From assembly GCF_000023205.1 (NCBI RefSeq), contig NC_012803.1:1080001-1112000 (forward strand): DNA of 32,000 nucleotides, read 5' to 3'. The notes beneath the pieces were generated by a model, which worked only from the letters and a program-made list of their open reading frames with translations, did no database searches and was not told where the DNA came from. Shown piece after piece: positions 10,501 through 29,181 of the stretch. Position 1 is the first letter of the stretch, and the number at the start of each line of letters is the position of its first letter. Origin of the DNA: Micrococcus luteus NCTC 2665 (GTDB lineage: Bacteria > Actinomycetota > Actinomycetes > Actinomycetales > Micrococcaceae). Made by a program: the position numbers and the translations under genes.

Positions 10501-10834
10501 GCAGCCCGCCGCCCCGGCCGCCGTCGAGGAGGCCGTGATGGTGGAGCCTGCGGCGACCGAGCCGACGGCGGACGGGGAGCAGGCGTCCGCCGCGGACGCC
10601 CCGACCGAGGCCCAGGCGGCCCCGGCGCCCAAATCGCCGCGCCGGCGCTCGCGTCGTGCCGTGTCGTCCGACGGCGTCCACGTCCAGGTCCAGGCCGCGC
10701 CCGGCGGCGCCCAGGGCGGCCGCTTCACGGCGGCCGTGGCCGAGGCGTCCACCCCCGCCGAGCCGCAGGGTGCCGCCCCGGTGATGCTCGGCGTCGGCGT
10801 GAAGGCCGCCGACCTGGCCCGTCGCGGCCGCTGA
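7559..10834 (+). CDS. rne: ribonuclease E/G family endoribonuclease (RNase E)
   Basis: S1 domain GNVYLGKVQNVLPSMEAAFVDIGRGRNAVLY. Catalytic core includes LVIDRTEAMTVVDVNTGKF and IIVIDFIDM. It is flanked by Arg/Glu/Ala/Pro-rich low-complexity arms. ATG 7559 has GGGAGG 8 nt upstream; in-frame ATG 7430 is an alternative start. Confidence 0.85.
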   Translation: MAANNEDTTRADERAEETAAQAVTQTAADTAAGAVQPERTAASDDAAGPAEEPSAPTLQFDPTDPFAVPANLIEVLRTETTSRQPSEDEDDPETSGRPRRRRRPSREGGHAEEGAADASADAEDQEGAGESEDRAEGAVVSRRRRRRRRGEVDMELDGGEAGDPEHTVTRVRAPRQAASTASDTVQSVKGSTRLEAKRQRRRDSRSGGRRRTVITEAEFLARREAVDRKMLVRQRDQRIQIAVLEDGVLAEHFVSHTTQDSMIGNVYLGKVQNVLPSMEAAFVDIGRGRNAVLYAGEVNWDAAQLDGKPRKIENALKSGDTVLVQVTKDSVGHKGARLTSQVSLPGRYLVYVPGGSMTGISRKLPDVERSRLKKILKDHLPQDAGVIVRTAAEGTSEQELQNDINRLRAQWEGIQEKASGTKVLAPELLYAEPDLTIKTVRDVFNEDFSAMLVQGEATWDNIEAYVTYVAPHLLGRLHHWVPEDHDGEDLYATHRVDEQLHKALERKVYLPSGGSLVIDRTEAMTVVDVNTGKFTGSGGNLEETVTKNNLEAAEEIVRQLRLRDIGGIIVIDFIDMVLEANRDLVLRRLVECLGRDRTKHQVAEVTSLGLVQMTRKRMGTGLVEVFSETCEHCAGRGILIQDTPIERGRSGGEQRGEAEGRRRRRRRGDGEGEHAHAAAATTTGAEPTDSEDERQRRERAEAARVALHSIAKASGKVAEDETPAQESAPAEQAADAAEDQAAEAVEAASAGPAEAGQPAGADEEETPRRRRRRGRRRSRGRAEESGDTGAEDAARSHDDELAESAEQPRQTEEEAASKAPGAPEHQDPVVQAEEAVAAVAEAEADAEAEPTEDAAEQGDRPRRSRRRRGGRGRSRRDGEAASTEADAEDQGAERATPSRHDVAGDAPEPEPAEDAPAPVPAEDVPAPRRRRSRRASSDGVVRPAAGADASAERAADRMDAAPVETTEPSPEESTDATEVHEQPAAPAAVEEAVMVEPAATEPTADGEQASAADAPTEAQAAPAPKSPRRRSRRAVSSDGVHVQVQAAPGGAQGGRFTAAVAEASTPAEPQGAAPVMLGVGVKAADLARRGR

Positions 10835-10845
10835 CCGTCGTCGGT

Positions 10846-10876
10846 GCCGCCGCCCGGGCCTGCCCCGGGCGGCGGC
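10846..10876 (+). terminator. GC-rich hairpin after rne
   Basis: gccgccgcccggg (10846-10858) pairs with cccgggcggcggc (10864-10876). It lies 12 nt after the rne stop. Confidence 0.5.
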
Positions 10877-10897
10877 GACGCGCCGACACGCCTCTGT

Positions 10898-10927
10898 TTG
10901 GTCCGGACGCCCGGCAGCGAGTATGCT
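10898..10927 (+). promoter_or_regulatory. candidate promoter for rplU-rpmA
   Basis: TTGGTC (10898-10903), 18-nt spacer, TATGCT (10922-10927). A ~135-nt leader follows. Identified by eye only. Confidence 0.3.
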
Positions 10928-11065
10928 GGACCATCGGTGTTCACCGCCCGCACGCTCCCGCATGTCCCGGTGAGGGACCGCCGGACCCGGACGCAGCCGC
11001 GGTCGAGGTGCGGGCGAGCAGAACCCGATCTGATCCATTGAAACGTCGAGAGAAGTGAGTCCCAA

Positions 11066-11371
11066 GTGGTGTACGCGATTGTCCGCGCTGGCGGCCGCCA
11101 GGAGAAGGTTTCCGTCGGAGACCTCGTTACCCTTGACCGCGTTCCCGCTGAGACCGGTGGCTCCGTCGAGCTGCCCGCTCTGATGCTGGTGGACGGGGAC
11201 GAGGTCAAGGCTGGCGCCGATGCCGCCGGTGTGAAGGTGACCGCCGAGGTCGTCTCCCACTCCCGTGGCAAGAAGGTCGTCATCATGAAGTACAAGAACA
11301 AGACCGGCTACAAGAAGCGCCAGGGCCACCGCTCTGAGCTGTCCACGGTCAAGATCACCGGGATCGCCTGA
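11066..11371 (+). CDS. rplU: 50S ribosomal protein L21
   Basis: MVYAIVRAGGRQEKVSVGD... with a GTG start. Confidence 0.95.
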   Translation: MVYAIVRAGGRQEKVSVGDLVTLDRVPAETGGSVELPALMLVDGDEVKAGADAAGVKVTAEVVSHSRGKKVVIMKYKNKTGYKKRQGHRSELSTVKITGIA

Positions 11372-11422
11372 GCCGTCACCGGCACCGGCGAAACCGAGCA
11401 TCCGAGAGGTTAGGCAACAGCA

Positions 11423-11680
11423 ATGGCACATAAGAAGGCCGGCAGTTCCTCGAAGAACGGCCGCGATTCGAACCCGCAGTACCTCGGCGTCAAGCGCTAC
11501 GGCGGCGAGGACGTCAACGCCGGCGAGATCATCGTCCGCCAGCGTGGCACCAAGTTCCACCCGGGCCGCAACGTCGGCCGCGGCAAGGACGACACCCTCT
11601 TCGCGCTGTCCGCGGGCTCCGTGGCCTTCGGCCAGCGCCGCGGCCGCAAGGTCGTGGACATCGTCCCCGCCGCGGAGTGA
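11423..11680 (+). CDS. rpmA: 50S ribosomal protein L27
   Basis: [28 protein letters not shown]...[13 protein letters not shown]. Confidence 0.95.
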
Positions 11681-18205: not shown

Positions 18206-18273
18206 GGTCGAGTTGCCAGCGAGGCGAACGGGCCGGAAACGGCGCGTGAACATCGCGGGTGACGCCCACATCT

Positions 18274-18346
18274 GGGGGTATGGCGCAGTTGGTAGCGCGT
18301 CTGCATGGCATGCAGAAGGTCAGGGGTTCGAATCCCCTTACCTCCA
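18274..18346 (+). tRNA. tRNA-Ala (anticodon GGC), copy 1
   Basis: A 73-nt cloverleaf folded by hand. Acceptor GGGGGTA/TACCTCC with the G3:U70 Ala identity pair. Anticodon loop ATGGCAT, T-loop TTCGAAT, discriminator A. CCA is not encoded. Confidence 0.9.
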
Positions 18347-18399
18347 CCGCACGCACAAGGCTCGAACCCTTGCCAACGGAAACGTCGGTCGAGGCTCGG

Positions 18400-18995
18400 G
18401 CCTTGTGTGCGTCTGCGGCCCAGGTCAGAGCGTTGGCGTTGACCTGCGGATCGAGCAGCATCTCGAAGGGCCGGTTGTGCTCGACACGCAGCTCGTTGTC
18501 CTCGTCGATGAAGACCTTCGTGAAGAACGCCTGATTGTACAGCCGCCGGCTGGTGTCGTCGCACCGGGTGTAGATGTCGGCGCAGTTGGCGAGCAGCCCG
18601 AGGGCGTCGTCGAGGTGGGCGCGGGCGTCGGCGTAGTCACCGAAGTGCGCGTCGATGCGACGGGTCACCTGGTCGAGTTCGGGGACGATCCGGTCCTGCT
18701 CGCGCTGGAGCACGGAGAGCGGGATCGCATCGGCGTAGTGCGCCTGCATGAGCCGGTCCTGCTCGCTTTCGAGCCGGTCGCGGTTGGTGGTGAGGCGTTC
18801 CAGTTCCTCGGTTTCGGCGGCCATGAGCCGGTCGAACTCGTGGTGGAGCATGCTCGCGAGTGCGTCCTGCTGGGCGGGCGTGATCTGGACGCGGGTGTAG
18901 TAGTCCGCGACAAGTTTCTCGACGTCTTCGATGAGCATCGCCTGGCGCGTGCAGCAGTCCCGGGCGCCGCCCGAGTCGGCTGCGCAGAAGATCGA
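18400..18995 (-). pseudogene. large serine recombinase remnant (C-terminal zinc-ribbon / coiled-coil part only; catalytic domain absent)
   Basis: The minus-strand frame reads ...IFCAADSGGARDCCTRQAMLIEDVEKLVADYYTRVQITPAQQDALASMLHHEFDRLMAAETEELERLTTNRDRLESEQDRLMQAHYADAIPLSVLQREQDRI...RRLYNQAFFTKVFIDEDNELRVEHNRPFEMLL. This resembles recalled C-terminal regions of actinobacterial large serine recombinases. No resolvase-type N-terminal domain is seen upstream. The frame has no stop before running antisense through the tRNA. Confidence 0.6.
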
Positions 18996-19306
18996 CGCTG
19001 CGAGGGCGCGAGCCACGCTCACGCAGGCAACCGACGTCGCCGGTACGCGCGCGGGACGTAGCGGGCCTCGGCCGGTCGAACACAGATCGCTCGGCCGCTC
19101 GCTGTAAGTCCCGTGGCAGGCGGGCGATCTGCGGAGGGTAGCGTCGTCCACCTGCCTGAAACCGAACCCGTGCCGTGGGCGGAGGGAGCATCTGGCACGA
19201 CCTTGTCTCTCTCGGCAGGTGCTCCCCGCAGCGAGAGGTCGCTACCGGTACACTTTGAAGATCACCACCCGGCTTTAGAGGCGTGCCACTGAGAGGAGGT
19301 CCCCTG

Positions 19307-20317
19307 ATGGCGACCAACGATCAGCTCAAGGCACTCGTAAAGAGCCACGCCGACGGGGACGACCCGCAGTTCTACTCGGTGGCCATGCAGGTCGCAGCCA
19401 AAGCCGCGCGCGCTGGGCAGTCGAAGTTCGCCCAGGAGCTTCGCGACCTCGTCAACGACCTCCGTGAGCGATCTGGCCAACGCGCCCGCATCGCCGCCGT
19501 GGTTCCGTTCGCTCAGCCGAAGGGTGAGCTCGGGGCGCTGCTGAACGTCTCGTACCCCGAGGCCAGACTGAGCGATCTTGTGCTCACGGACAAGCTTCAT
19601 GAACGACTGACGCACGTACTGCTGGAACAGCGACAGCGTGACGCGCTGGCACGACATGGCCTGACCCCTGCGCGGCGCCTTTTGCTCACTGGGCCGCCAG
19701 GCACTGGGAAGACATCTACTGCGCGCGTGATCGCGGGCGAACTAGGACTTCCGCTGTTCTCGATCAGACTGGATACAGTGCTGACGAAGTTCATGGGAGA
19801 GACTGCCGCGAAACTGCGTCTTGTATTCGATGCGCTCGCCGAGACTCGTGGTGTCTACCTCTTCGACGAGGTTGACGCACTCGGTGGCGACCGCGCCGCA
19901 CAGAATGACGTAGGGGAGATTCGTCGAGTACTCAACTCGTTCCTACAGTTCCTCGAGGAGGACACGTCAGACAGCGTCATCATTGCTGCAACGAACCATC
20001 CCAGCCTGTTGGACAACGCACTGTTCCGTAGGTTTGACACCGTGATGGACTTCGCTCTGCCGGACGACGCGGCAGTGGAATCAGTTATCAAGAACCGGCT
20101 CGCGTCGTTCCACATCTACAACCTGAGCTGGTCACGAATCATCCCAGCAGCTCGTGGTCTGAGCCACGCTGAGATCGCGACAGCCGCCGAGAACGCCGCT
20201 AGCGAACCGTCCTTGGTGGACGCACCCAAGTGCGTACCGATGATGTTGTCATCGCTTTGGAAGAACGTCCGCGCTCCAAGCGTCGGACTGACGGGGCGAA
20301 CTAGCGGAGATGGCTGA
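19307..20317 (+). CDS. AAA+ ATPase, IetA-like; probable 1-nt frameshift near codon 298
   Basis: GAGGAGG lies 7 nt upstream of ATG 19307. Walker A GPPGTGKT (19691-19714). Walker B VYLFDEVD (D187/E188 at 19865-19870). Sensor-1 IIAATNHP and Arg-finger region LFRRFD. The tail after 20200 reads better in another frame (see findings). Confidence 0.85.
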   Translation: MATNDQLKALVKSHADGDDPQFYSVAMQVAAKAARAGQSKFAQELRDLVNDLRERSGQRARIAAVVPFAQPKGELGALLNVSYPEARLSDLVLTDKLHERLTHVLLEQRQRDALARHGLTPARRLLLTGPPGTGKTSTARVIAGELGLPLFSIRLDTVLTKFMGETAAKLRLVFDALAETRGVYLFDEVDALGGDRAAQNDVGEIRRVLNSFLQFLEEDTSDSVIIAATNHPSLLDNALFRRFDTVMDFALPDDAAVESVIKNRLASFHIYNLSWSRIIPAARGLSHAEIATAAENAASEPSLVDAPKCVPMMLSSLWKNVRAPSVGLTGRTSGDG

Positions 20318-22679
20318 GCGAGACCGTCCGCACATCCTGGTGCCCACGCCGCCCGCGTCTGAGTCCTTCACGCCTATCACGACGCCGGTGACGAGCCGAG
20401 GTGGTGGCTTTAGCGGGAGCCGGAGCGAGCACGGGAAGCGCCTGACTCAAGAGTTCGAGGCCGCCTGGGCGCCCCCAGTAGATGAGCCTGAAACCACGGG
20501 CACATACCTCACCTTCGCCTCCTTTCCCGGCCTCGACCTGATGTTCGAGAGCTTGGAGTCGCGTCGGCCTGGTGCCCAGCCAGAGCTTGTTGCTGTCCAA
20601 CAGGAATTGACCCCAGCAGGCGAGATCGCAAACGCGACGGTCTTCATCCCCGAAGGGCAGAAGGAGTTCTTCCTCAAGAAACTTGAGCAGTATGTCGAGA
20701 CGGCCGAGGTCGCAGAAGGGAAGCCGAAGCACGCGGCTCTTATCGAGGGTATTGCCTCGATCCGTCGCGCAACGATCCGAGAGCTGTGGACGGACCCTGC
20801 GGACGAGTACCCGACTAGCCCCACCGAATCCCGCTGGTGGGAACTTTGGCTCAGAGCCCTTGACGGCCAGGAGTACGCCCGACTGACGGCGTACGCCCAG
20901 TTGCATAACCTCCCTGTGAGCGACCACTACCTCGGATTCGGTGACCGAACGGTCGTGCTCATCCGCGCCACGAGTGAACAACTCGCGATGACCTTCCGGA
21001 GCATCGACGACATCGCCGAGCTGCGTCGCCCACACGAAGTAGCCTCGTCCCTTCCAGGGTTATCAGCATTCGAACAACGCGACTGGGTGCGCGAGTTGCA
21101 GTCTCGCGTCGAACACGCTGGAACCGACGCTCCCGCGGTGTGCCTCCTCGACCGTGGCGTGCAAGCCGGGCACCCGCTACTGGAAGACTCACTCGCAGCC
21201 GACGACCTTCACGCGGTTGAGCCAAGTTGGCGCAAAGATGTGGCGATCCACGCCCACGGCACCGAGATGGCTGGACTTGCGCTCTATGGAGACCTGCAAG
21301 CCGCAGTCGGCGCTCAGCACCGCATCCGTCTGGAGCATCGGCTCGAATCAGTGAAGCTGCTCCCTGACACTGCGGACAACGATCCCGATGTGTACGGGGC
21401 AGTGACAGCGAGAGCGGTCGATCAGCCCGAGATTTCAGCACAGAATCGGGCCCGGGTGTTCATGCTGGCCATCACTGCACCTGCCGCTGCGCCAAACCCA
21501 GGGCATCGTGTCGAGGACCGTCCGAAGCAGGAGTCCGGGCGTCCGACGGCGTGGTCCGCCACGCTCGATGCCCTGGCCTTCGGCCGTGCGATTGATGACA
21601 GCGCCCCCAAGTTCACCTACCTGAACCGAGACGAGGAGCCCACGCCCCGGCTCTTTGTCGTTTCCGCTGGCAACATCCGTGACGTGCGCGCCGAGGACAA
21701 TCACCTTGATCGTAGCGATGCGGAAGGAGTCGAAGACCCGGCACAGTCGTGGAACGCGCTCGCGGTTGGAGCCTACGCGGAGCATGACGCGATGGATCAC
21801 GCCCCTGACGTCTTTGCAGGATACGTGCCGATCGCAGCCCGTGGTGAGCTATCACCCACCAGTCGGACTTCGGTTTCCTTTGATCAGAAGCGGTGGCCGT
21901 TCAAGCCGGATGTCGTCGCACCTGGTGGGAACCTTGCTCGGACCCCTGACGGCTCAGGGGTAGACACACCTGAGAACCTCGCGATCCTCACCACTCGTCT
22001 CCAGCACCCTGGCGAGGGATTCTTTACGACCACCCGGGATACCTCGGCTGCCACGGCCCAGGTCTCGGCTATCGCAGCCGACATCCTGGCCGCCTACCCT
22101 CACTTGAGGCCCGAGACAGTCCGCGCCCTGATCGTCCACTCTGCTGAGTGGACGGACGCGATGCAAGCGCGAATCACTGCCGCGCGCACAAAGGGAGCAG
22201 CGGTCAACTTGCTTCGTCGCTACGGGATGGGCGTGCCCAGCCTGGAACGCGCTACCCGCAGCGCAACCAATGCGCTGACGCTGGTGGACGAGGCCGTCAT
22301 CCATCCATATGAGCGTGACGGCAATTCCAGCAGTGGGAAAGCGCGCGAGATGAACCTGCATCGCCTGCCGTGGCCCATCGACGAGTTGTCCGCGCTTGGA
22401 GAGACCGAAGTTCGGCTGCGCGTCACCCTCTCGTACTTCGTAGAACCAAACCCATCGAGTCGCGGCTGGACGGGCCGATACGTCTACCCCTCTCATGGGT
22501 TGCGCTTCGCGATGAAACGACCCGAGGACAACCTTGACGCGTTCCGCCAGCGCGTCAACAAGCAGGCACGCGATGAAGGTGAGAAGCCACTGGCCCTCAA
22601 TACCGAGAGCGGTTGGCTTTTCGGCCGTGACCAGCAGACCTCGGCCGGATCACTCCACACCGATATTTGGCTCTCCTGA
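20310..22679 (+). CDS. S8 family (subtilisin-like) serine peptidase, IetS-like; 3' end cut off by ISL3 insertion
   Basis: Triad contexts are CLLDRGV (D281, 21150-21152), HAHGTEMAG (H316, 21255-21257) and TRDTSAATAQVS (S579, 22044-22046). Oxyanion motif SAGN. The last two codons and the stop come from the IS inverted repeat. Confidence 0.85.
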   Translation: MAERDRPHILVPTPPASESFTPITTPVTSRGGGFSGSRSEHGKRLTQEFEAAWAPPVDEPETTGTYLTFASFPGLDLMFESLESRRPGAQPELVAVQQELTPAGEIANATVFIPEGQKEFFLKKLEQYVETAEVAEGKPKHAALIEGIASIRRATIRELWTDPADEYPTSPTESRWWELWLRALDGQEYARLTAYAQLHNLPVSDHYLGFGDRTVVLIRATSEQLAMTFRSIDDIAELRRPHEVASSLPGLSAFEQRDWVRELQSRVEHAGTDAPAVCLLDRGVQAGHPLLEDSLAADDLHAVEPSWRKDVAIHAHGTEMAGLALYGDLQAAVGAQHRIRLEHRLESVKLLPDTADNDPDVYGAVTARAVDQPEISAQNRARVFMLAITAPAAAPNPGHRVEDRPKQESGRPTAWSATLDALAFGRAIDDSAPKFTYLNRDEEPTPRLFVVSAGNIRDVRAEDNHLDRSDAEGVEDPAQSWNALAVGAYAEHDAMDHAPDVFAGYVPIAARGELSPTSRTSVSFDQKRWPFKPDVVAPGGNLARTPDGSGVDTPENLAILTTRLQHPGEGFFTTTRDTSAATAQVSAIAADILAAYPHLRPETVRALIVHSAEWTDAMQARITAARTKGAAVNLLRRYGMGVPSLERATRSATNALTLVDEAVIHPYERDGNSSSGKAREMNLHRLPWPIDELSALGETEVRLRVTLSYFVEPNPSSRGWTGRYVYPSHGLRFAMKRPEDNLDAFRQRVNKQARDEGEKPLALNTESGWLFGRDQQTSAGSLHTDIWLS
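22661..22668. repeat. target-site duplication CGATATTT (left copy) of the ISL3 insertion
   Basis: Identical 8-mer at 24066-24073, immediately outside the inverted repeats. Confidence 0.85.
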
Positions 22680-24065
22680 CTGATCCGTGGGTCATTTCCG
22701 GCCCGGTAGGACGGGTCGGTGGCCGCCGAGGTTGAGCATGGCCAGGGCGATGAGGGCTTCGGGGGACTTGAAGCCGAAGGCGACGCGGGTGATGAGCCGA
22801 ATCTTCGTGTTCACGGACTCGATACGTCCGTTGGACAGGCCGTGCTCGATCGCGGCGAGGATCGAGGCCTTGTGCTTGACGATGCGGCGTTGGAGCTCGA
22901 CGAAGGCGGGGATGCGGCAACGTCGGGCCCAGCCGATCCAGCGTTCCAGGGCCGTCTCGGCCTCGTCGGCGGGTAGCTGGAAGACCAGGCGCAGTCCTTC
23001 CTTGAGCAGGTAGGCCCGGTGCAGGCGCGGGTCGGTCTTGGCGACCCAGGCGAGCTTGGCCTGCTGCCGGGTGGTGAGGTTCTCGGGGTTCTTCCACAGC
23101 GCGTACCGGGCGTGCTTGAGCGCCTTGGCGTGCCCGCCGGCCCGCCCGGCCCGGCGCTGCCGGACCGCGCCACGGGCCTCGTTCCACGCCTGGCGACGGA
23201 CCTCGTCCAGGGCCTCGGTGGCCCACTTGACGATGTGGAACGGATCAGCGCACCGCACCGCGTTCGGGCACCGCTCGGCGACCACGGCGGCGATCCAGTC
23301 CGCCCCGTCGGCGCTGACGTGGGTGATCTCGGCGCACCGGTCGGGCCCGAGGGCCTCGAAGAACGCCGCCAGGGTCGCCTTGTCCCGGCCCGGGGCGGCC
23401 CAGACGAGCCGGCCGGTGTCGTGGTCGACCACGATCGTGAGGTAGCGGTGGCCCTTCTTGTAGGAGATCTCATCGATGCCGATCCGTCGCAGGCCGGCGA
23501 ACCGGTCGCCGAGGGCCTCCACGTCGGCCCAGACCCGGGTGATGATCGCCCCGACGGTGCGCCAGGCGATGCGCATCAGCTCGGTGACCGCGGACTTGGA
23601 GCACTGCGTGGCCAGCCAGGCCACCTGCTCGTCGAACACCACGGTGTGACCGGCCCCGTGCCTGGCCCACGGGACGGCGGCCACCGTGGGACCGTGCTCG
23701 CGGCAGGCCACCCGCGGGGCGTCGGCCTCGAGGTAGACCTGCACCGTGCCCAGATCCAGCGCCCGCCACCGCCGCCGACCCTCGCCACGGTCGTACCCGG
23801 GCGACCTGCGCCCGCACCGCCCGCACCGGCCACGCACTCGAGCCCGGGGACGGACATGAGCCACCAGGAGCTGGTCGTCCTCATCGAACTCGATGCCCTC
23901 CACGACCGTCTTCTCGACGCCCAGCAAGGACCGCCATAGGCTTGCGTTCCGCACGCCGTTCTCCGCCCTTCAGGTAACTGACCTCAACAGCCAGAAACCT
24001 AGGCAGAGAGCGGCGTGCCCTCGTCAACGGCTCGCCAGAACACCCACGGAAGCGTCAGGAGAGCC
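22669..24065 (-). mobile_element. ISL3-family insertion sequence (1397 bp)
   Basis: Terminal inverted repeats are GGCTCTCCTGACtgaTCCGTGGGT (left) and GGCTCTCCTGACgctTCCGTGGGT (right, reverse complement). 8-bp TSD. A single transposase gene fills the element. Confidence 0.85.
22692..23954 (-). CDS. ISL3 family transposase
   Basis: 420 aa. N-terminal zinc-finger-like RCGRCGRRSPGYDRGEGRRRWRALDLG. Later VFDEQVAWLATQ...RRIGIDEISYKKGHRYLTIVVDHDTGRLVW, typical of the ISL3 (IS204/IS1001/IS1096) family. Confidence 0.9.
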   Translation of the reverse strand: MRNASLWRSLLGVEKTVVEGIEFDEDDQLLVAHVRPRARVRGRCGRCGRRSPGYDRGEGRRRWRALDLGTVQVYLEADAPRVACREHGPTVAAVPWARHGAGHTVVFDEQVAWLATQCSKSAVTELMRIAWRTVGAIITRVWADVEALGDRFAGLRRIGIDEISYKKGHRYLTIVVDHDTGRLVWAAPGRDKATLAAFFEALGPDRCAEITHVSADGADWIAAVVAERCPNAVRCADPFHIVKWATEALDEVRRQAWNEARGAVRQRRAGRAGGHAKALKHARYALWKNPENLTTRQQAKLAWVAKTDPRLHRAYLLKEGLRLVFQLPADEAETALERWIGWARRCRIPAFVELQRRIVKHKASILAAIEHGLSNGRIESVNTKIRLITRVAFGFKSPEALIALAMLNLGGHRPVLPGRK

Positions 24066-24276
24066 CGATATTTGGTCGGGGTCGGCCGCTGACCTCGCGG
24101 CCAAAGAGGCTGTCGTTGTGTACCCCGTCGCAGGTTGGTGGAAGAACCGGCCGAAGCTGGATCAGAGCGACAAAGGCGTCAACTACTCGCTCGTCGTCAG
24201 CATCGAGGCCCCCGAGGTGGAAGTCGACCTCTGGACACCGGTCTACCAGCAGGTGGCCGCAGTGATTGAGGTCTGA
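24066..24276 (+). pseudogene. displaced 3' end of the S8 peptidase gene (right TSD copy plus last 66 codons and stop)
   Basis: Deleting 22669-24073 joins ...GSLHTDIW to SGSAADLAAKEAVVVYPVAGWWKNRPKLDQSDKGVNYSLVVSIEAPEVEVDLWTPVYQQVAAVIEV* in frame. Confidence 0.85.
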
Positions 24277-24550
24277 CAGCGAAACCCGATCCTGCAGTGT
24301 GCATGAACGCGGACGTTCACCTCGACAACGTTGACCGGGAGCCTTGATGGATACGCGCCGAGTCCCGTGACATGGGATCCTGGGGATCGGATGCTGTGAG
24401 GGCCCGCCCGCCCTCGTGACTGAACGATCTCATTTCCGTCGGTTGGCGCGGGCGCGTCAGATCACCCGCATGCGCGACAACATAAGCGAGGGGACTGCTG
24501 CACGGATAGGTGACATCTGATCTGTGACGCTGTGAGGCGTTGCTGGAAGG

Positions 24551-24853
24551 ATGAACACCGTGCCCAAGCCCTATCCCCAGGAGTTCCGCGACGACGTCGT
24601 GCGCGTCGCCCGCAACCGTGAACCTGGCCAGACCATCAAGCAGATCGCCGCGGACTTCGGCATTGCCGAGTCCTGCCTGCGCAACTGGATGCGCCGGGCG
24701 GACGTGGAAGAGGGCTCCACACCCGGAACGAGCGCCGCCGAGCACGCCGAGCTCCGGGAGGCCAAGAAGCGCATCCGGCTGCTGGAGCAGGAGAACGAGG
24801 TTCTGCGCCGGGCGGCGGCCTATCTGTCCCAGGCGAACCTGCCGGGAAAATGA
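24551..24853 (+). CDS. IS3 family transposase OrfA (HTH)
   Basis: MNTVPKPYPQEFRDDVVRVARNREPGQTIKQIAADFGIAESCLRNWMRRA...leucine-zipper-like LREAKKRIRLLEQENEVLRRA. Confidence 0.85.
   Translation: MNTVPKPYPQEFRDDVVRVARNREPGQTIKQIAADFGIAESCLRNWMRRADVEEGSTPGTSAAEHAELREAKKRIRLLEQENEVLRRAAAYLSQANLPGK
24844..24850 (+). promoter_or_regulatory. programmed -1 ribosomal frameshift heptamer G_GGA_AAA at the orfA/orfB junction
   Basis: An X_XXY_YYZ heptamer in the orfA frame, immediately before the orfA TGA. The -1 frame continues GKMKYPLVRELAAVGIPVTVTCRVLKLTRQPYYRW (OrfB N-terminus). Confidence 0.55.
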
Positions 24854-24970
24854 AATACCCGCTCGTCCGTGAGCTGGCCGCCGTCGGGATCCCCGTCACG
24901 GTGACGTGCCGGGTCCTCAAGCTCACCCGCCAGCCCTACTACCGCTGGCTCGCCACCCCGGTCACCGACG

Positions 24971-24979
24971 CCGAACTGG
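24971..24979. repeat. target-site duplication CCGAACTGG (left copy) of the IS256 insertion
   Basis: Identical 9-mer at 26401-26409. Removing the IS plus one copy restores the orfB frame. Confidence 0.8.
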
Positions 24980-26400
24980 AGTTGAGTCCCGCATAGTGGT
25001 ATAGCGCCCGGTGGTCGGGCGTGTCGTCTCAGACGTGGACGCGGCCACCGTGTGATCCGTCGAGTCAACCTTCCACAGAATCCTCGAATGGAGTCATCAC
25101 GATGACCGCTCCTCATATTCTCGACCCTGCCGGCCTGCTCGGAGAAGCCCTGTCTGAAGCGTCCCCGGACATGATGCGCCATCTGCTGCAGACCATGATC
25201 AACACCTTGCTGTCCGCGGATGCCGACGCGGTGGTCGGTGCCGAATGGGGCAAGCCCAGCTCCTCGCGCACTGCTCGGCGGAACGGGTACCGCCACCGGG
25301 ACCTGGACACCCGGGTCGGCACCCTGGACGTGGCCATCCCCAAGCTCAGATCGGGCACGTACTTCCCGGACTGGCTACTTGAACGCAGGAAGAGAGCGGA
25401 GTCGGCGCTGATCACCGTGGTCGCTGACTGCTACCTCGCCGGGGTCTCGACCCAACGGATGGACAAGCTGGTCAAGACTCTGGGCGTCAACGCCCTGTCC
25501 AAGTCCCAAGTCTCCCGGATGGCCACCGAGCTCGACGAGCAGGTCGAGGCCTTCCGCCACCGCCCGCTCGGGGTGGCCGGCCCGTTCACGTTCGTGGCCG
25601 CCGATGCGCTGAGCATGAAGGTCCGCGAGGGCGGGCGCGTGGTCAACGCCGTGGTGCTGCTGGCCACCGGGGTCAACGCTGACGGCCACCGCGAGGTCCT
25701 GGGCCTGCGGGTCGCCACCTCGGAGACCGGGGCGGCGTGGAACGAGTTCTTCGCCGACCTGGTCGCCCGCGGCCTGGCCGGGGTCCGGTTGGTCACTTCT
25801 GACGCCCACACCGGACTCAAGGACGCCATCGCGGCGAACCTGCCCGGAGCGACGTGGCAGCGCTGCCGCACCCATTACGCGGCGAACCTGATGGGCATCA
25901 CCCCGAAGAACATGTGGCCGGCCGTGAAAGCCATGCTGCACTCGGTCTATGACCAGCCCGATGCGGCCAGCGTGCACGCGCAGTTCGACCGGCTCCTGGA
26001 CTACGTGAGCGAGAAGCTGCCCACCGTGGCTGAGCACCTCGACGCCGCCCGGGCGGACATCCTGGCCTTCACCACGTTCCCGAAGGACGTCTGGACGCAG
26101 GTCTGGTCGAACAACCCGGCCGAGCGGCTCAACCGGGAGATCCGCCGTCGCACCGACGCGGTGGGCATCTTCCCCAACCGGGCGGCCATCGTCAGGCTAG
26201 TGGGTGCGGTGCTGGCCGAGCAGACCGATGAATGGGCCGAGGGTCGACGCTACCTCGGTCTCGAAGTCCTGGCCCGCTGCAGGCTCACCACCGTGACCAA
26301 CACCGGAGACGAGGTGGACCCCGACACCGAACTCACCCTCGGCCTCAGCGCCTGACCCCCATGAAGGATCAGACCGCTACACCATCACGAGGGGCTTGAC
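24980..26400 (+). mobile_element. IS256-family insertion sequence (about 1421 bp) nested inside IS3 orfB
   Basis: Imperfect terminal inverted repeats (18 of 26 positions match between gttgagtcccgcatagtggtatagcg and the reverse complement of the right end gtcaagcccctcgtgatggtgtagcg). 8-9 bp TSD. One mutator-type transposase gene. Confidence 0.8.
25102..26355 (+). CDS. IS256 family (mutator-type) transposase
   Basis: MTAPHILDPAGLLGEALS...LLSADADAVVGAEWGKPSSSRTARRNGYRHRDLDTRVGTLDVAIPKLRSGTYFPDWLLERRKRAE...CYLAGVSTQRMDKLVKTLG...WQRCRTHYAANL. In-frame ATG 25021 is less likely to be the start. Confidence 0.9.
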   Translation: MTAPHILDPAGLLGEALSEASPDMMRHLLQTMINTLLSADADAVVGAEWGKPSSSRTARRNGYRHRDLDTRVGTLDVAIPKLRSGTYFPDWLLERRKRAESALITVVADCYLAGVSTQRMDKLVKTLGVNALSKSQVSRMATELDEQVEAFRHRPLGVAGPFTFVAADALSMKVREGGRVVNAVVLLATGVNADGHREVLGLRVATSETGAAWNEFFADLVARGLAGVRLVTSDAHTGLKDAIAANLPGATWQRCRTHYAANLMGITPKNMWPAVKAMLHSVYDQPDAASVHAQFDRLLDYVSEKLPTVAEHLDAARADILAFTTFPKDVWTQVWSNNPAERLNREIRRRTDAVGIFPNRAAIVRLVGAVLAEQTDEWAEGRRYLGLEVLARCRLTTVTNTGDEVDPDTELTLGLSA

Positions 26401-27184
26401 CCGAACTGGCCGAGGCGTACCTGGCCAACGCGTTGTTCGACGCCCATCGCGACGACCCCGAGTTCGGCTACCGGTACCTGGCCGATGAGGCCCGAGACGC
26501 CGGCCACGCCGCGTGTGACCGGACGATGTGGCGGGTGTGCTCGGCCAACGGCTGGTGGAGCGCGTTCGGCAAGAAGCGCGGCAAGAACGGCAAGAAGCCG
26601 GGCCCACCGGTCCACGACGATCTGGTGAAACGCGATTTCACCGCCGACGCCCCGAACGAACTCTGGTTGGCCGACATCACCGAACACCGCACCGGTCAAG
26701 GCAAGCTCTACCTGTGCGCGGTCAAGGGCGTGTCCTCCAACCGGATCGTGGGCTACTCGATCAGCGACCGGATGAAGTCGCGCCTGGCCGTGAATGCGCT
26801 AAACAATGCCGTGGCCAGACGCACCGAGGTGGCTGGCTGTATTCTGCGCACAGACCGCGGATCGCAATTTCGGTCCAGGAAATTCGTCCGCGCCCTGCAC
26901 CACCACGACATGGTCGGTTCGATGGGCAAGGTCGGTGCCGCCGGTGACAACGCGGCCATGGAGAGCTTCTTCGCGCTGCTGCAGAAGAACGTCCTGGACC
27001 GTCGCACCTGGGCCACTCGCCAGGAGCTGCGGATCGCGATCGTCACCTGGATTGAGCGGACCTACCACCGCCGGCGCAGGCAGACAGCCCTGGGCTGATT
27101 GACTCCCGTTGAATACGAGACCATCATGACCGCACCGGTCGCTCAGGCAGCCTGACCCACCCTGTCACCTATCCGTGCAGCAGT

Positions 27185-27334
27185 TCCCACCTCCCGCCGG
27201 ATGAGGTGGGTGGCGACCGTGCGGCGGTTCACTCCGAACACGGATGCCAGCTCCACGAGCGTCGCGCCCCTGCAGTACTGCGCCACCCGATCGTCGACCT
27301 GCTCGGGGGCGCAGCAGGGTTTGAGCCATCCCAA
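27185..27334 (-). pseudogene. helix-turn-helix gene remnant (resolvase / sigma-70 region-4-like HTH), cut by the IS3 right end
   Basis: The minus frame reads ...APEQVDDRVAQYCRGATLVELASVFGVNRRTVATHLIRREVG and then enters the IS3 inverted repeat. The frame is open upstream to 27433. Confidence 0.35.
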
Positions 27335-27471
27335 GTGATCGCACCACTCGACCCCTGGAATCGGAAACCGTAGGCTCAGAGGAGCGCTGGTCCTGGTTGT
27401 AGAAGCCCCGTGACCTGCGCAAAGACAAGGTTTTCAGGTGTGGGCAGGGGTTCTCAAACTCTCTACGGAGG

Positions 27472-27520
27472 TCCACCAGTCAGAAGGCCCGGTCCATACG
27501 GACCGGGCCTTCGTCGTCGT
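27472..27520 (+). repeat. att-like junction: 6-bp tRNA 3'-end core TCCACC plus terminator hairpin; 46/49 identical to 28932-28980
   Basis: tccaccAgtcagaaggcccggtccATACggaccgggccttcgtcgtcgt versus tccaccCgtcagaaggcccggtccGTGCggaccgggccttcgtcgtcgt. The 13-bp stem is 27483-27495 / 27500-27512. Two of the three mismatches fall in the hairpin loop. Confidence 0.7.
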
Positions 27521-27560
27521 CGGGCTCCCGTGCGGGGCCGGGAGGCGACCGCCACCCCGC

Positions 27561-27593
27561 GACATCACCGCGGTTCTGCACTGCGGTGATGTC
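27561..27593. terminator. 11-bp-stem hairpin overlapping the oxidoreductase stop codon
   Basis: gacatcaccgc (27561-27571) pairs with gcggtgatgtc (27583-27593) around an 11-nt loop. Confidence 0.3.
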
Positions 27594-28695
27594 GCTCCGC
27601 CGCGGTCGGTGCGGGGGACACGCCGGGGTACGCGGCGCACTCCGCCGCCGTGAGTGCGGGTTCCACCGCACGGCCCTCCCGCGCCGAGGCGACGGCGGCC
27701 TCGAGCACCGCCATCACGGCGACGGCCTGGTCGGGGGTGGCGGCGTCACCGTTCGGGCGGCCCAGGATCGCGTCGCGCACACCCGTGTAGGACCGCTGCT
27801 GGGCTCCGGTGGGCGCGGGGACGCGCTCGGTGTTCCCCTCCCCGTCGTGCAGGAGGATCGGGTCGGGGTCGACACCCCAGCCCTCGGAGCCGGGGAGCAG
27901 ACCCGCGTGCAGCTGCGCCTCCTGCTGATCCGGCAGTTCCTTCACCGCGGAGCCGCGCGTGCCGTGGACCGCGAAGCGCGGGCTGCCGCCGGCCACGAGC
28001 ATCGACGCCTGCAGGACCACGCGCCGGCCCGGGTACTGCAGCACGCAGTGCGCCCAGTCCTCGACCGGGGCGCCCGGACGCAGGGCCGCGAGGTCGGCGT
28101 CCACGCGTTCGGGGACACCGAAGAGCAGGAGCGCCTGGTCGACCAGGTGCGGTCCGAGGTCGAACCAGATGCCGCCCCCGGGCACCGCGGCTTCCCGCCA
28201 GCGGTCCCGGACGGTCGGGCGGAAGCGGTCGATCCGGGACTCGAGGTGGACGACGTCCCCGAGCCGGCCGGAGCGGACCAGCTCGGCGATGCCCAGGAAG
28301 TCGCTGTCGAAGCGGCGGTTCTGGAACACCCGCAGCACCCGCCCGGTCTCGACCGCGAGGTCGCGAAGCTCCCGCGCCTCGGCGAGACTCAGCGTGAAGG
28401 GCTTGTCCACCACCACGTGCCTACCCGCCCTCAGGGCCGTGCGCGCGAGCGGCGTGTGCTGGTCGTTCGGGGCGGCGATCACCACGAGGTCCACGTCGTG
28501 GCGCGCCAGGATCGCGTCCACGTCGGGCACCACGACGACGTCCGGCAGATCCGCGTGCACCGCGTCCGGGCGGCTCGAGGCGACATGGGTGAGCACGAGA
28601 CCCTCCGTGGCGCGGAGCAGGGGGACGTGGAACGTCTTCCCGGCGAACCCGTAGCCGATCAGCGCTGTGCGGATCGGTGCGTCGGTGGGGGACAT
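27565..28695 (-). CDS. Gfo/Idh/MocA family NAD(P)-dependent oxidoreductase
   Basis: Start ATG at 28695 with AGGAGG upstream. Rossmann N-terminus IRTALIGYGFAGKTFHVPLL and the EKP-like motif VVVDKPFTLSLAEA. Confidence 0.85.
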   Translation of the reverse strand: MSPTDAPIRTALIGYGFAGKTFHVPLLRATEGLVLTHVASSRPDAVHADLPDVVVVPDVDAILARHDVDLVVIAAPNDQHTPLARTALRAGRHVVVDKPFTLSLAEARELRDLAVETGRVLRVFQNRRFDSDFLGIAELVRSGRLGDVVHLESRIDRFRPTVRDRWREAAVPGGGIWFDLGPHLVDQALLLFGVPERVDADLAALRPGAPVEDWAHCVLQYPGRRVVLQASMLVAGGSPRFAVHGTRGSAVKELPDQQEAQLHAGLLPGSEGWGVDPDPILLHDGEGNTERVPAPTGAQQRSYTGVRDAILGRPNGDAATPDQAVAVMAVLEAAVASAREGRAVEPALTAAECAAYPGVSPAPTAAERHHRSAEPR

Positions 28696-28814: not shown

Positions 28815-28862
28815 GTTCAGGTGCTCCGGCCGGTCCGCCGGAAACGGAGTCACCACCCACCT

Positions 28863-28935
28863 GGGGGTATGGCGCAGTTGGTAGCGCGTCTGCATGGCAT
28901 GCAGAAGGTCAGGGGTTCGAATCCCCTTACCTCCA
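28863..28935 (+). tRNA. tRNA-Ala (anticodon GGC), copy 2
   Basis: 73/73 identical to 18274-18346. The upstream leader differs except for ccggaaacgg and a gtSacSMcccac-like block. Confidence 0.9.
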
Positions 28936-28942
28936 CCCGTCA

Positions 28943-28972
28943 GAAGGCCCGGTCCGTGCGGACCGGGCCTTC
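28943..28972 (+). terminator. hairpin terminator after tRNA-Ala copy 2
   Basis: gaaggcccggtcc (28943-28955), loop gtgc, ggaccgggccttc (28960-28972). No T-tract follows; I recall this being frequent in actinobacteria. Confidence 0.6.
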
Positions 28973-29181
28973 GTCGTCGTGACGGCCAGCTCGCCGTCGA
29001 GACCCGCCGGTCACGGCCGGGTTGCGGTCCCGCGTCGATCACGCATCGACGTCGCACAGCCCTTTCACGGCAGGCTCTCGGCGGACAGACTCGAGGCGTC
29101 CCCACCCGTGGAGCCCGGAACGCCGGTGCTGCAGAGGCGGGGGCCGCCGGCTCTGTCCGGCCGACTCAGTGAGGAGTTGCC

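What the first reader, a model, noticed from the sequence alone, without database searches (positions are those of the whole stretch)
18343..27520. A ~9.1 kb island inserted exactly at the 3' end of tRNA-Ala(GGC), with a 6-bp crossover core
The first tRNA-Ala ends ...cttaccTCCACC and is followed by foreign DNA. TCCACC reappears at 27472, followed by agtcagaaggcccggtccatacggaccgggccttcgtcgtcgt. That sequence is 46/49 identical to the native sequence immediately downstream of the second tRNA-Ala copy (28932-28980). The simplest reading is that tRNA copy 1 originally ran straight into the terminator now at 27478-27512. On that reading, 18349-27471 is an insertion with attL at 18343-18348 and attR at 27472-27477. 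The very short core and the adjacent large-serine-recombinase remnant fit serine-integrase-type integration rather than a tyrosine integrase, which usually leaves longer tRNA-derived repeats. About 4.1 kb of the 9.1 kb is IS DNA and no intact recombinase remains, so the island appears immobilised.
Basis: partly seen in the sequence, partly recalled or inferred. Interest (0 to 1): 0.65.

Follow-up and report, generated by a model that had tools for sequence, protein, structure and literature searches.

The report
Decayed mobile island at tRNA-Ala
The 9.1-kb segment is a real foreign insertion at the last bases of a tRNA-Ala gene in Micrococcus luteus: the worn-down remnant of a mobilizable element that a large serine recombinase put there, carrying an IetAS defence/stability gene pair, which makes it a well-documented but ordinary kind of genomic island.

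Summary
tRNA-Ala(GGC) copy 1 (18274-18348) is followed by low-GC DNA. TCCACC recurs at 27472. The next 43 bases match the terminator after tRNA copy 2; counting the core, the match is 46/49.

Two other M. luteus assemblies carry exactly the predicted empty site. Six carry the island.

The minus-strand gene that abuts attL is the C-terminal ~40% of a large serine recombinase (LSR). A more complete relative has this order: tRNA-Ala, LSR, SSB, coupling protein, TrwC relaxase, IetA, IetS. The window lacks 6.6 kb of that.

The remainder is further damaged:
- ISL3 sits in ietS.
- An IS3 copy holding an IS256 has cut a small 2xHTH gene at the right end.
- ietA has a 1-bp frameshift.

The island's two ends are contiguous in another genome, 52/54 identical across the junction. 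The right arm occurs exactly in 48 metagenome contigs next to 41 unrelated flanks, always joined at GGTGGA.

The serine-integrase reading is therefore supported. The 6 bp is only the shared core of sites about 50 bp long. The island is non-autonomous, but its att arms are intact.

[quoted passage not shown] Verdict: a new member of a known kind.

The parts
18274..18348 (+). tRNA-Ala(GGC) copy 1, the integration target. After integration the gene ends ...ACCg instead of the encoded ...ACCa.
   Evidence: ARAGORN. The empty site in L086 reads ...tccaccagtcag.
18343..18348 (.). attL core TCCACC (tRNA positions 70-75), shared by attB and attP.
   Evidence: the flanking alignments to the empty site overlap by 6 bp.
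18349..18412 (.). Element left end. It holds the P1 arm of attP (gcacgcacaaggctcgaaccc) within a strong hairpin directly after the tRNA.
   Evidence: The arm is conserved in L091, L093, L095, L096, L097, L099 and L102. The fold is -48.2 kcal/mol, z = -5.0.
18349..18961 (-). Remnant of the large serine recombinase gene, about residues 326 to the end (coiled-coil/C-terminal part). There is no stop codon before the junction, so the frame runs into the antisense tRNA.
   Evidence: Translation and a GC3 of 0.9. Homologues are 73-100% identical. Full-length relatives have PF00239, PF07508 and PF13408. tblastn of P0125 matches residues 326-510.
18961..18963 (.). Deletion joint. Relative to L096, about 6.6 kb is missing: the LSR N-terminus, a 187-aa ORF, SSB, the coupling protein and most of the TrwC relaxase.
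   Evidence: BLASTN places window 18274-18954 on L096 11481-10801 and window 18970-22670 on L096 4155-456.
18963..19107 (+). Last ~45 codons of the TrwC relaxase gene. This is inferred from the alignment to L096 4155-4018.
   Evidence: It was not checked independently by translation.
19307..20317 (+). ietA (AAA+ ATPase). Its C-terminal tail is frameshifted by a 1-bp deletion at 20202 relative to three other assemblies.
   Evidence: PADLOC IetA at 4e-71. Pfam AAA. The indel is shown.
20310..22670 (+). ietS (S8 subtilase), residues 1-787 of 853, cut by ISL3.
   Evidence: Pfam Peptidase_S8 at 5.5e-54. PADLOC IetS at 1.7e-35. The intact 853-aa form is in L083.
22671..24064 (-). ISL3-family insertion sequence with an 8-9-bp target duplication, CGATATTT(G).
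   Evidence: Pfam DDE_Tnp_ISL3 at 5e-75. Inverted repeats. L083 carries the uninterrupted site.
24065..24276 (+). 3' end of ietS.
   Evidence: BLASTN to L096 466-257 and to L083.
24490..27188 (+). IS3-family element. orfA is at 24551-24853 and the rve domain at 26433-27098. An IS256-family element (about 24981-26415, target duplication CCGAACTGG) interrupts it. No target duplication was found for the IS3 copy.
   Evidence: The 26-nt inverted repeats are 96% complementary. Pfam Transposase_mut and rve. Flanking sequences.
27189..27300 (-). Truncated and frameshifted small 2xHTH gene of the element, a regulator or recombination directionality factor candidate.
   Evidence: Translation. Intact homologues lie next to the same arm in L102, L129 and about 40 metagenome loci. 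Pfam HTH_28 and HTH_23.
27448..27477 (-). attR: the P2 arm plus core, GGTGGACCTCCGTAGAGAGTTTGAGAACCC on the minus strand. The core TCCACC lies at 27472-27477.
   Evidence: The 30-mer is found exactly in 48 metagenome contigs. It is 30/30 identical in L102.
27478..27520 (+). Displaced native terminator of tRNA copy 1.
   Evidence: It directly follows the tRNA in L086 and L088. The hairpin is -34.3 kcal/mol, z = -4.8. Counted over 27472-27520, i.e. with the 6-bp core, the match to the sequence after copy 2 is 46/49.
28862..28938 (+). tRNA-Ala(GGC) copy 2, a second attachment site. It is empty here. In L086 a different LSR-type remnant occupies it.
   Evidence: In one search, tblastn of P0125 residues 459-508 matches L086 12515-12366.

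Best explanation
The segment 18349-27471 is the eroded remnant of an integrative mobilizable element.

How it arrived. The element entered tRNA-Ala(GGC) copy 1 by conservative site-specific recombination catalysed by its own large serine recombinase (LSR).
- attP lies at the very 3' end of the LSR reading frame. On its other side is a small 2xHTH gene.
- attB is the last six bases of the tRNA (T70-C75, TCCACC) plus the acceptor/T-arm on one side.
- Recombination inside the 6-bp identity left the LSR gene abutting the tRNA (attL) and the HTH gene abutting the displaced terminator (attR).
- The element brought ietA-ietS, an ATPase/protease pair described as an anti-phage or plasmid-stability system.

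How it decayed.
- A 6.6-kb internal deletion removed the LSR catalytic half, SSB, the coupling protein and the relaxase.
- ISL3 split ietS.
- An IS3 copy, itself hit by IS256, replaced the region between ietS and the HTH gene.
- ietA and the HTH gene carry frameshifts.

Shown versus inferred.
- Shown: the insertion, its exact boundaries, the empty site, the LSR identity, the deletion and IS events, and the contiguity of the two ends in another genome.
- Inferred: the 2-bp crossover inside the core, the role of the GAACCC motifs as recombinase half-site contacts, the role of the HTH protein, and the possibility of excision in trans.
For: - Empty site: it is exact in L086 and L088.
- Composition: GC steps at both boundaries.
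- LSR remnant: it is flush with attL. Full-length homologues have Resolvase, Recombinase and Zn-ribbon domains.
- Same junction elsewhere: relatives sit at tRNA-Ala(GGC), tRNA-Ala(CGC) and tRNA-Lys(TTT), always directly after ...ACC.
- More complete relative: L096 reads tRNA|LSR|SSB|T4CP|TrwC|IetA|IetS. The window aligns to it on both sides of a 6.6-kb gap.
- Contiguity of the ends: the window's left and right ends are contiguous in L102, 52/54 identical across the junction and 64% identical beyond it.
- Right arm: it is found exactly in 48 metagenome contigs, joined at GGTGGA to 41 unrelated flanks. A 2xHTH gene follows it in most of them.
- Cargo: IetA and IetS match PADLOC models at 4e-71 and 1.7e-35.
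- IS events: ISL3 and IS256 have target duplications, and L083 carries the ISL3-free allele.
Against: - No recombination was observed; everything rests on sequence comparison.
- No fully intact element with both ends was recovered in a single locus. L096 has an assembly gap of Ns inside the LSR gene. Its relaxase and coupling protein match only the C-terminal parts of the Pfam profiles.
- The contiguous junctions seen in chromosomes (L093, L099, L102) may be joints between tandem elements rather than true attP sites.
- The host-side arm of attB shows no conservation. That is unusual for LSRs, which normally contact both half-sites.
Confidence: 0.88

Rival explanations
1. The island was integrated by a tyrosine integrase, as for most tRNA-borne islands. 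That gene was later lost, and the LSR remnant is a passenger.
For: tRNA 3' ends are the classic targets of tyrosine integrases. The literature calls serine-recombinase integration into tRNA rare (PMC3218068, read).
Against: - No Phage_integrase domain appears in any island ORF, nor in L096, L097, L091 or L095.
- The direct repeat is 6 bp, not a tRNA-derived block of tens of bases.
- The LSR reading frame ends flush with the junction in every relative, whatever the tRNA.
Confidence: 0.03
2. The 6-bp repeat is a target-site duplication made by a transposase, with the segment acting as a composite or unit transposon driven by one of the resident IS elements.
For: Three IS elements lie inside the segment, and the flanking 6-bp direct repeat is formally compatible with a duplication.
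Against: - The island ends carry no IS termini or inverted repeats of transposon type.
- L083 has the same island boundaries without ISL3.
- The identical right arm is joined at the same 6 bases in 41 different contexts, and the left arm always meets a tRNA 3' end. A transposase would not give that pattern.
Confidence: 0.03
3. The segment is ancestral in M. luteus, and the 'empty' strains lost it by deletion.
For: Six of eight informative assemblies carry it.
Against: - Its GC is about 10 points below the flanks.
- The empty allele is a perfectly intact tRNA-plus-terminator unit, like copy 2.
- The contents are mobile-element genes with 80-91% DNA identity to elements in other genera.
- Precise loss would itself imply LSR-mediated excision, which is the same mechanism.
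Confidence: 0.04

Closest known systems
Serine-recombinase AICEs of Mycobacterium integrated in a tRNA-Leu gene, and phage phiRSM1 in tRNA-Ser (Ghinet et al. 2011, PMC3218068)
   Same: They are actinobacterial integrative elements placed by a serine recombinase at a tRNA gene. The source itself describes this as rare.
   Different: The target here is tRNA-Ala (with tRNA-Lys in a sister lineage). The transfer module here is relaxase plus coupling protein, not the FtsK/TraB plus Rep module that defines AICEs. Sequence relatedness of the recombinases was not tested.
Dehalococcoides ssrA genomic islands with the LSR DsiB (McMurdie et al. 2011, PMC3146451)
   Same: They are LSR-type mobilizable islands that sit next to a tRNA-like gene, with the recombinase gene on the reverse strand next to attL. 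They accumulate in tandem downstream of the target.
   Different: Their target is the tmRNA T-loop with a 20-bp direct repeat. They carry a second small serine recombinase, DsiA. Their cargo is dehalogenase genes.
Phage serine integrases (phiC31, Bxb1, A118/LI). This comparison rests on my own knowledge of the published att-site models.
   Same: The domain order is the same: Resolvase, Recombinase, Zn ribbon, coiled coil. The shared core is very short. The attP is about 50 bp with an outer inverted repeat. The outer motif sits about 5 bp further from the centre in attP (15-18 nt) than in the tRNA arm of attB (13 nt).
   Different: Those enzymes integrate into protein-coding genes and contact two related half-sites in attB. 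Here only the tRNA-side arm is conserved, and the other arm has about zero information across 41 sites. No phage genes are present, and the arm has no match in IMG/VR.
IetAS (anti-phage system of Gao et al. 2020; earlier described as a plasmid-stability pair on Ti plasmids; both recalled from memory)
   Same: An AAA+ ATPase is followed by an overlapping S8 protease gene, and both match the PADLOC IetA and IetS models.
   Different: In this window both genes are damaged: a frameshift in ietA and ISL3 in ietS. Intact copies exist in other M. luteus strains.

Membership tests
Element integrated by a large serine recombinase | An LSR gene (Resolvase + Recombinase + Zn ribbon + coiled coil) lies next to an att site. 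| tested here: inconclusive
   The window holds only the C-terminal ~220 residues and has no Pfam hit. It is 66-100% identical to the matching part of proteins that carry all three domains. The gene is of this family but not intact.
Element integrated by a large serine recombinase | The insertion is precise and conservative relative to an empty site, with only a few bases shared between attP and attB. | tested here: met
   The empty site is present in L086 and L088, and 6 bp are shared.
Element integrated by a large serine recombinase | The attP is about 50 bp, conserved as a unit, and has imperfect dyad symmetry. | tested here: met
   Identity is 52/54 across the junction against 64% beside it. 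The outer ends are GGGTTC and GAACCC. The inner symmetry is weak (read).
Element integrated by a large serine recombinase | Serine-mediated 2-bp staggered cleavage with subunit rotation. | not testable with these tools
   This needs biochemistry. Comparison of junctions only confines the crossover to GGTGGA, or to GTGGA if the L086 copy-2 element is included.
Integrative mobilizable or conjugative element (IME/ICE) | Relaxase and coupling protein, plus a VirB4-type T4SS for an ICE. | tested here: not met
   The window keeps only about 45 codons of the relaxase. Relatives have TrwC and TraG/TrwB-type proteins. No VirB4 was seen in the loci read. The window is therefore a remnant, and the family looks like an IME rather than an ICE.
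Actinomycete ICE (AICE) | An FtsK/SpoIIIE-type Tra protein and a Rep protein (criteria of PMC3218068). | tested here: not met
   Neither domain was found in the window or in L096.
Tyrosine-integrase tRNA island | A Phage_integrase (PF00589) gene and a tRNA-derived direct repeat of roughly 15-60 bp. | tested here: not met
   There is no PF00589 hit. The exact repeat is 6 bp. The weak T-arm-like similarity at 27440-27471 belongs to the element's own arm.
IetAS | Adjacent IetA (AAA+ ATPase) and IetS (S8 protease) genes. | tested here: met
   PADLOC gives 4.2e-71 and 1.7e-35. Both genes are disrupted in this window, and function was not tested.

The most novel reading that the evidence does not exclude
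This LSR family has two unusual properties that have not been described for serine integrases.

1. It recognises essentially only the tRNA half of attB, using a GAACCC T-loop motif that both arms of attP imitate. The attL of a resident element therefore stays a usable target, and elements pile up in tandem at tRNA-Ala.

2. Its reading frame has no stop codon before the crossover. Integration therefore swaps the protein's C-terminus. In the circular form the frame runs on, in frame, through the 2xHTH gene. In the integrated form it ends in antisense tRNA. That could act as a built-in switch of directionality or expression.
Probability: 0.15. Interest if true: 0.65.

Novelty: new member of a known kind. 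Interest (0 to 1): 0.35.

Why it matters
- For M. luteus, it explains a strain-variable 9-kb segment next to a conserved ribosome-associated gene cluster. It also identifies both tRNA-Ala(GGC) copies as landing sites for foreign DNA.
- More generally, it adds a well-delimited example, with an empty site, both junctions and a reconstructed attP, to the small set of serine recombinases that target tRNA genes.
- The identical right arm occurs in 48 metagenome contigs with 41 different flanks, so the element family is widespread in Actinobacteria.
- If the one-sided site recognition holds up, the enzyme could be of practical interest as an integrase aimed at a conserved tRNA sequence.

Tried and rejected
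- Wasted genome scan. 
- 'Fragments only' idea. The first homologue search with the 182-aa remnant returned only proteins of 320 aa or fewer. That suggested for a time that only fragments of this LSR exist. A second search with a longer query found forms of 477-537 aa with all domains. The idea was an artefact of the word index, and I dropped it.
- Selection on the linker. I asked whether the in-frame LSR-to-HTH read-through is under coding selection. Mismatches by codon position in the 117-nt linker are 14/8/20. That is suggestive at best, about p = 0.08 by my own chi-square, so the read-through is not claimed.
- Far end of L095. It holds a small frameshifted resolvase, not the HTH end, so it gave no second attR.
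- Rest of the L096 contig.
- IetS homologues in L100 and L101. They lie downstream of tRNA-Ala(CGC) and tRNA-Lys(TTT) but show no recognisable LSR remnant at the DNA level.
- Plasmids and viral contigs. The best full-length LSR match on a plasmid is 24% identical. The viral scan gave 0 matches to the arm.
- The 71-bp insert. My pattern search for it was mis-specified and found nothing. A direct check showed a single copy in the window.
Full report
**1. The observation**

ARAGORN finds two tRNA-Ala(GGC) genes, at 18274-18348 and 28862-28938. Copy 1 ends ...cttacctccacc and is followed by gcacgcacaagg.... TCCACC recurs at 27472 and is followed by a hairpin sequence. Taken over 27472-27520, that stretch matches the sequence after copy 2 (28932-28980) at 46 of 49 positions.

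GC content is 0.72-0.78 to the left and 0.59-0.68 from about 18.3 kb. It returns to 0.70-0.77 after 27.5 kb. A high-GC patch inside the segment corresponds to an ISL3 element.

**2. Organism and the empty site**

An exact-protein look-up with the histidine-phosphatase gene just upstream of copy 1 returned Micrococcus luteus chromosomes of about 2.5 Mb. The 789-aa truncated IetS of the window is on record from a contig of 2,501,097 bp. As far as I know, that is the size of the NCTC 2665 genome.

The informative assemblies split as follows:
- Six carry the island. Two of them (L081, L082) have the ISL3 insertion. Four (L083, L084, L085, L087) lack it.
These are L086 and L088.

BLASTN aligns the window's left flank up to 18348 and its right flank from 27472 to L086. 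The two alignments overlap by six bases. The segment 18349-27471 is therefore an insertion, and TCCACC is the only sequence shared at both junctions.

**3. What lies at the left end**

The minus strand from about 18960 down to 18349 has a GC3 near 0.9. It encodes ...DCTRQAMLIEDVEKLV...NQAFFTKVFIDEDNELRVEHNRPFEMLLDPQV...GKGSSLVRAV. There is no stop codon before the junction, so the frame runs on into the antisense tRNA.

Homologues of this remnant are annotated as site-specific recombinases. A longer query found forms of 477-537 aa, and the two that I scanned against Pfam carry Resolvase, Recombinase and Zn_ribbon_recom domains. P0125 carries the catalytic motif YLRVSTKEQ. tblastn places residues 326-510 of P0125 on window 19022-18477.

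No tyrosine-integrase domain was found in the island.

**4. A more complete relative and the internal deletion**

L096 is a contig from GCA_001577815.1. It reads, outward from the tRNA:
- tRNA-Ala(CGC);
- the LSR, at 9770-11524, with a run of N in the assembly;
- a 187-aa ORF;
- SSB;
- a TraG/TrwB-type coupling protein;
- a TrwC relaxase;
- IetA;
- IetS.

Window 18274-18954 aligns to L096 11481-10801 at 91% identity. Window 18970-22670 aligns to L096 4155-456 at 81%. Local alignments put the joint at about 18961/18963.

The window has therefore lost about 6.6 kb: the recombinase N-terminus, SSB, the coupling protein and nearly all of the relaxase. L096 is not pristine either. Its relaxase and coupling protein match only the C-terminal parts of the Pfam profiles.

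**5. Cargo and later damage**

- ORF 19283-20317 (start probably at 19307) matches PADLOC IetA at 4e-71. ORF 20310-22679 matches IetS at 1.7e-35 and Pfam Peptidase_S8 at 5.5e-54.
- ietS is split at 22670/24065 by an ISL3 element with a CGATATTT(G) target duplication. L083 carries the uninterrupted 853-aa gene.
- ietA lacks one base at 20202 relative to L081, L082 and L083, which changes its last ~26 residues. This may be a sequencing error.
- An IS3-family element lies at 24490-27188. Its 26-nt inverted repeats are 96% complementary. An IS256 with a CCGAACTGG duplication interrupts it.
- I found no target duplication for the IS3 copy. In L129 about 1.6 kb separates ietS from the HTH gene; here only about 0.2 kb of non-IS DNA remains next to ietS (24277-24489). 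I therefore infer that the IS3 insertion came with a deletion.

IS DNA totals 4.09 kb.

**6. The right end and the attachment sites**

The minus strand at about 27300-27189 encodes the start of a small protein with two HTH motifs. It is frameshifted by one extra C and cut by IS3 after ...THLIRRE. Intact versions are seen in L102 and L129, and they hit HTH_28 and HTH_23.

In Brachybacterium sacelli (L102) the LSR 3' end and this HTH gene are contiguous. I joined the window's left end, the core and the right end, in the LSR orientation, and compared the result with L102:

AAGGGTTCGAGCCTTGTGCGTG[C/G]GGTGGACCTCCGTAGAGAGTTTGAGAACCC

The match is 52 of 54 across the junction. The next 117 nt are only 64% identical. 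The island is therefore a circular permutation of that arrangement, opened exactly at GGTGGA (TCCACC).

The right arm was searched as an exact 30-mer. It occurs in 48 metagenome contigs and in no IMG/VR contig. The DNA on its other side falls into 41 unrelated classes with almost no information at any position. The only regularity is that the base next to the core is never A, and it is T in 19 of the 41 classes.

On the other side, the left arm meets the 3' end of tRNA-Ala(GGC), tRNA-Ala(CGC) or tRNA-Lys(TTT) directly after ...ACC in every relative. This is the signature of site-specific recombination at a fixed position.

**7. Inferred mechanism**

TCCACC is T70-C75 of tRNA-Ala (my reading of the tRNA numbering). 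The crossover must lie inside it. The second, unrelated element in L086 narrows it to the last five bases in the LSR orientation, GTGGA.

The motif GAACCC lies at these distances from the core:
- 18 nt in the right arm of attP;
- 15 nt in the left arm of attP, as GGGTTC on the same strand;
- 13 nt in the tRNA arm, where it is the T-loop (read).

A shift of about 5 bp between attP and attB half-sites is what the structural model of serine-integrase site recognition predicts. That statement rests on my knowledge of the A118/LI integrase work, not on a test here. The dyad centre falls on core position 4-5 or 5-6.

The weak tRNA-like similarity just left of 27472 is thus the element's own arm. It is not a displaced tRNA fragment.

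Integration changes the encoded CCA to CCg. The element supplies a strong hairpin (-48 kcal/mol, z = -5) directly after the tRNA, in place of the native terminator (-34 kcal/mol).

**8. Tandem arrays**

In about ten loci the sequence next to the right arm is the 3' end of another LSR gene, often a truncated one. These loci are L093, L099, L102, L108, L109, L114, L137, L138, L144 and L150.

I read these as joints between an older element and a newer one that entered between it and the tRNA. That is possible if only the tRNA-side arm matters. It also explains why 'attP-like' junctions sit in chromosomes. This is inference.

The window shows no such array. The native terminator follows attR directly.

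**9. Comparison with known systems**

Ghinet et al. [quoted passage not shown] They cite eight Mycobacterium AICEs in a tRNA-Leu gene and phage phiRSM1 in tRNA-Ser. The Dehalococcoides ssrA islands use an LSR at the tmRNA gene and accumulate in tandem.

The present element has a relaxase plus coupling-protein module rather than the FtsK/Rep module of AICEs. It looks like an integrative mobilizable element. I found no paper that describes this island or this recombinase family in Micrococcus. The search was limited to the held library.

**10. Verdict**

Three corrections apply:
- The att sites extend well beyond six bases.
- The island is a gutted mobilizable element, not merely a defence cassette.
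- 'Immobilised' means non-autonomous, because the att arms are intact and could respond to a recombinase supplied in trans.

It is a new, well-delimited member of a known kind. Interest is modest. It rises somewhat if the one-sided recognition, or the C-terminal swap of the recombinase on integration, proves real.

Noticed in passing
L086 12170-12520 (GCA_007665935.1): In the strain whose copy-1 site is empty, tRNA-Ala copy 2 is occupied. After ...cttacctccac comes gtaacaag... and an 84-aa minus-strand ORF. The ORF resembles the C-terminus of a distant LSR (36% to P0125 residues 459-508) and is cut by an IS256. Both tRNA copies are therefore landing sites for different LSR lineages.
   Followed up: partly
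window 20202: ietA lacks one A relative to three other M. luteus assemblies, including LS483396.1. This gives a C-terminal frameshift. It could be a real mutation or a homopolymer sequencing error.
   Followed up: partly
window 27538-27608: A 71-bp stretch is absent from L086. It has an internal 13-bp inverted repeat (gcgacatcaccgc...gcggtgatgtcgc) and is flanked by gtgcgggg on both sides. It lies at the 3' end of the Gfo/Idh/MocA oxidoreductase gene and occurs once in the window.
   Followed up: partly
window 18269-18348 and 28858-28980: The tRNA-Ala(GGC) gene with its terminator, about 123 bp, is duplicated on either side of a single oxidoreductase gene. A related genus (L095) shows only one copy at the equivalent place downstream of rsfS.
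   Followed up: no
L093 10679-20696, L099 8028-17741, L102 29-3853: The DNA next to LSR/HTH junctions in other genomes is rich in defence genes: a HEPN/DUF499/DUF1156 cluster, AbiEi/AbiEii, and a CBASS-like Patatin/SMODS/E2 set. These elements appear to be frequent carriers of defence cargo.
   Followed up: no
L100 4938-12562 and L101 8113-12562: IetAS pairs about 78-79% identical at the DNA level lie downstream of tRNA-Ala(CGC) (Micrococcales bacterium 31B) and of tRNA-Lys(TTT) (Corynebacterium atrinae). No recognisable LSR remnant was found by BLASTN.
   Followed up: partly
P0004, P0008, P0017, P0067, P0144, P0149, P0177, P0183, P0206: In at least five diverged lineages the LSR frame continues without a stop through the junction and, in frame, through the HTH gene, so gene callers report fusion proteins. 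All of these lack the catalytic N-terminus. Codon-position evidence for selection on the linker is weak (14/8/20).
   Followed up: partly
L102 4646-6888 and 11698-14615: In Brachybacterium sacelli a TetR/MFS/AraC trio is present twice in inverted orientation, flanking the IS3 + truncated LSR + HTH piece.
   Followed up: no
L113 1211-2746: In this metagenome contig the right arm lies only 1.46 kb from a tRNA-Ala(CGC). It looks like an almost completely eroded copy of the element.
   Followed up: no
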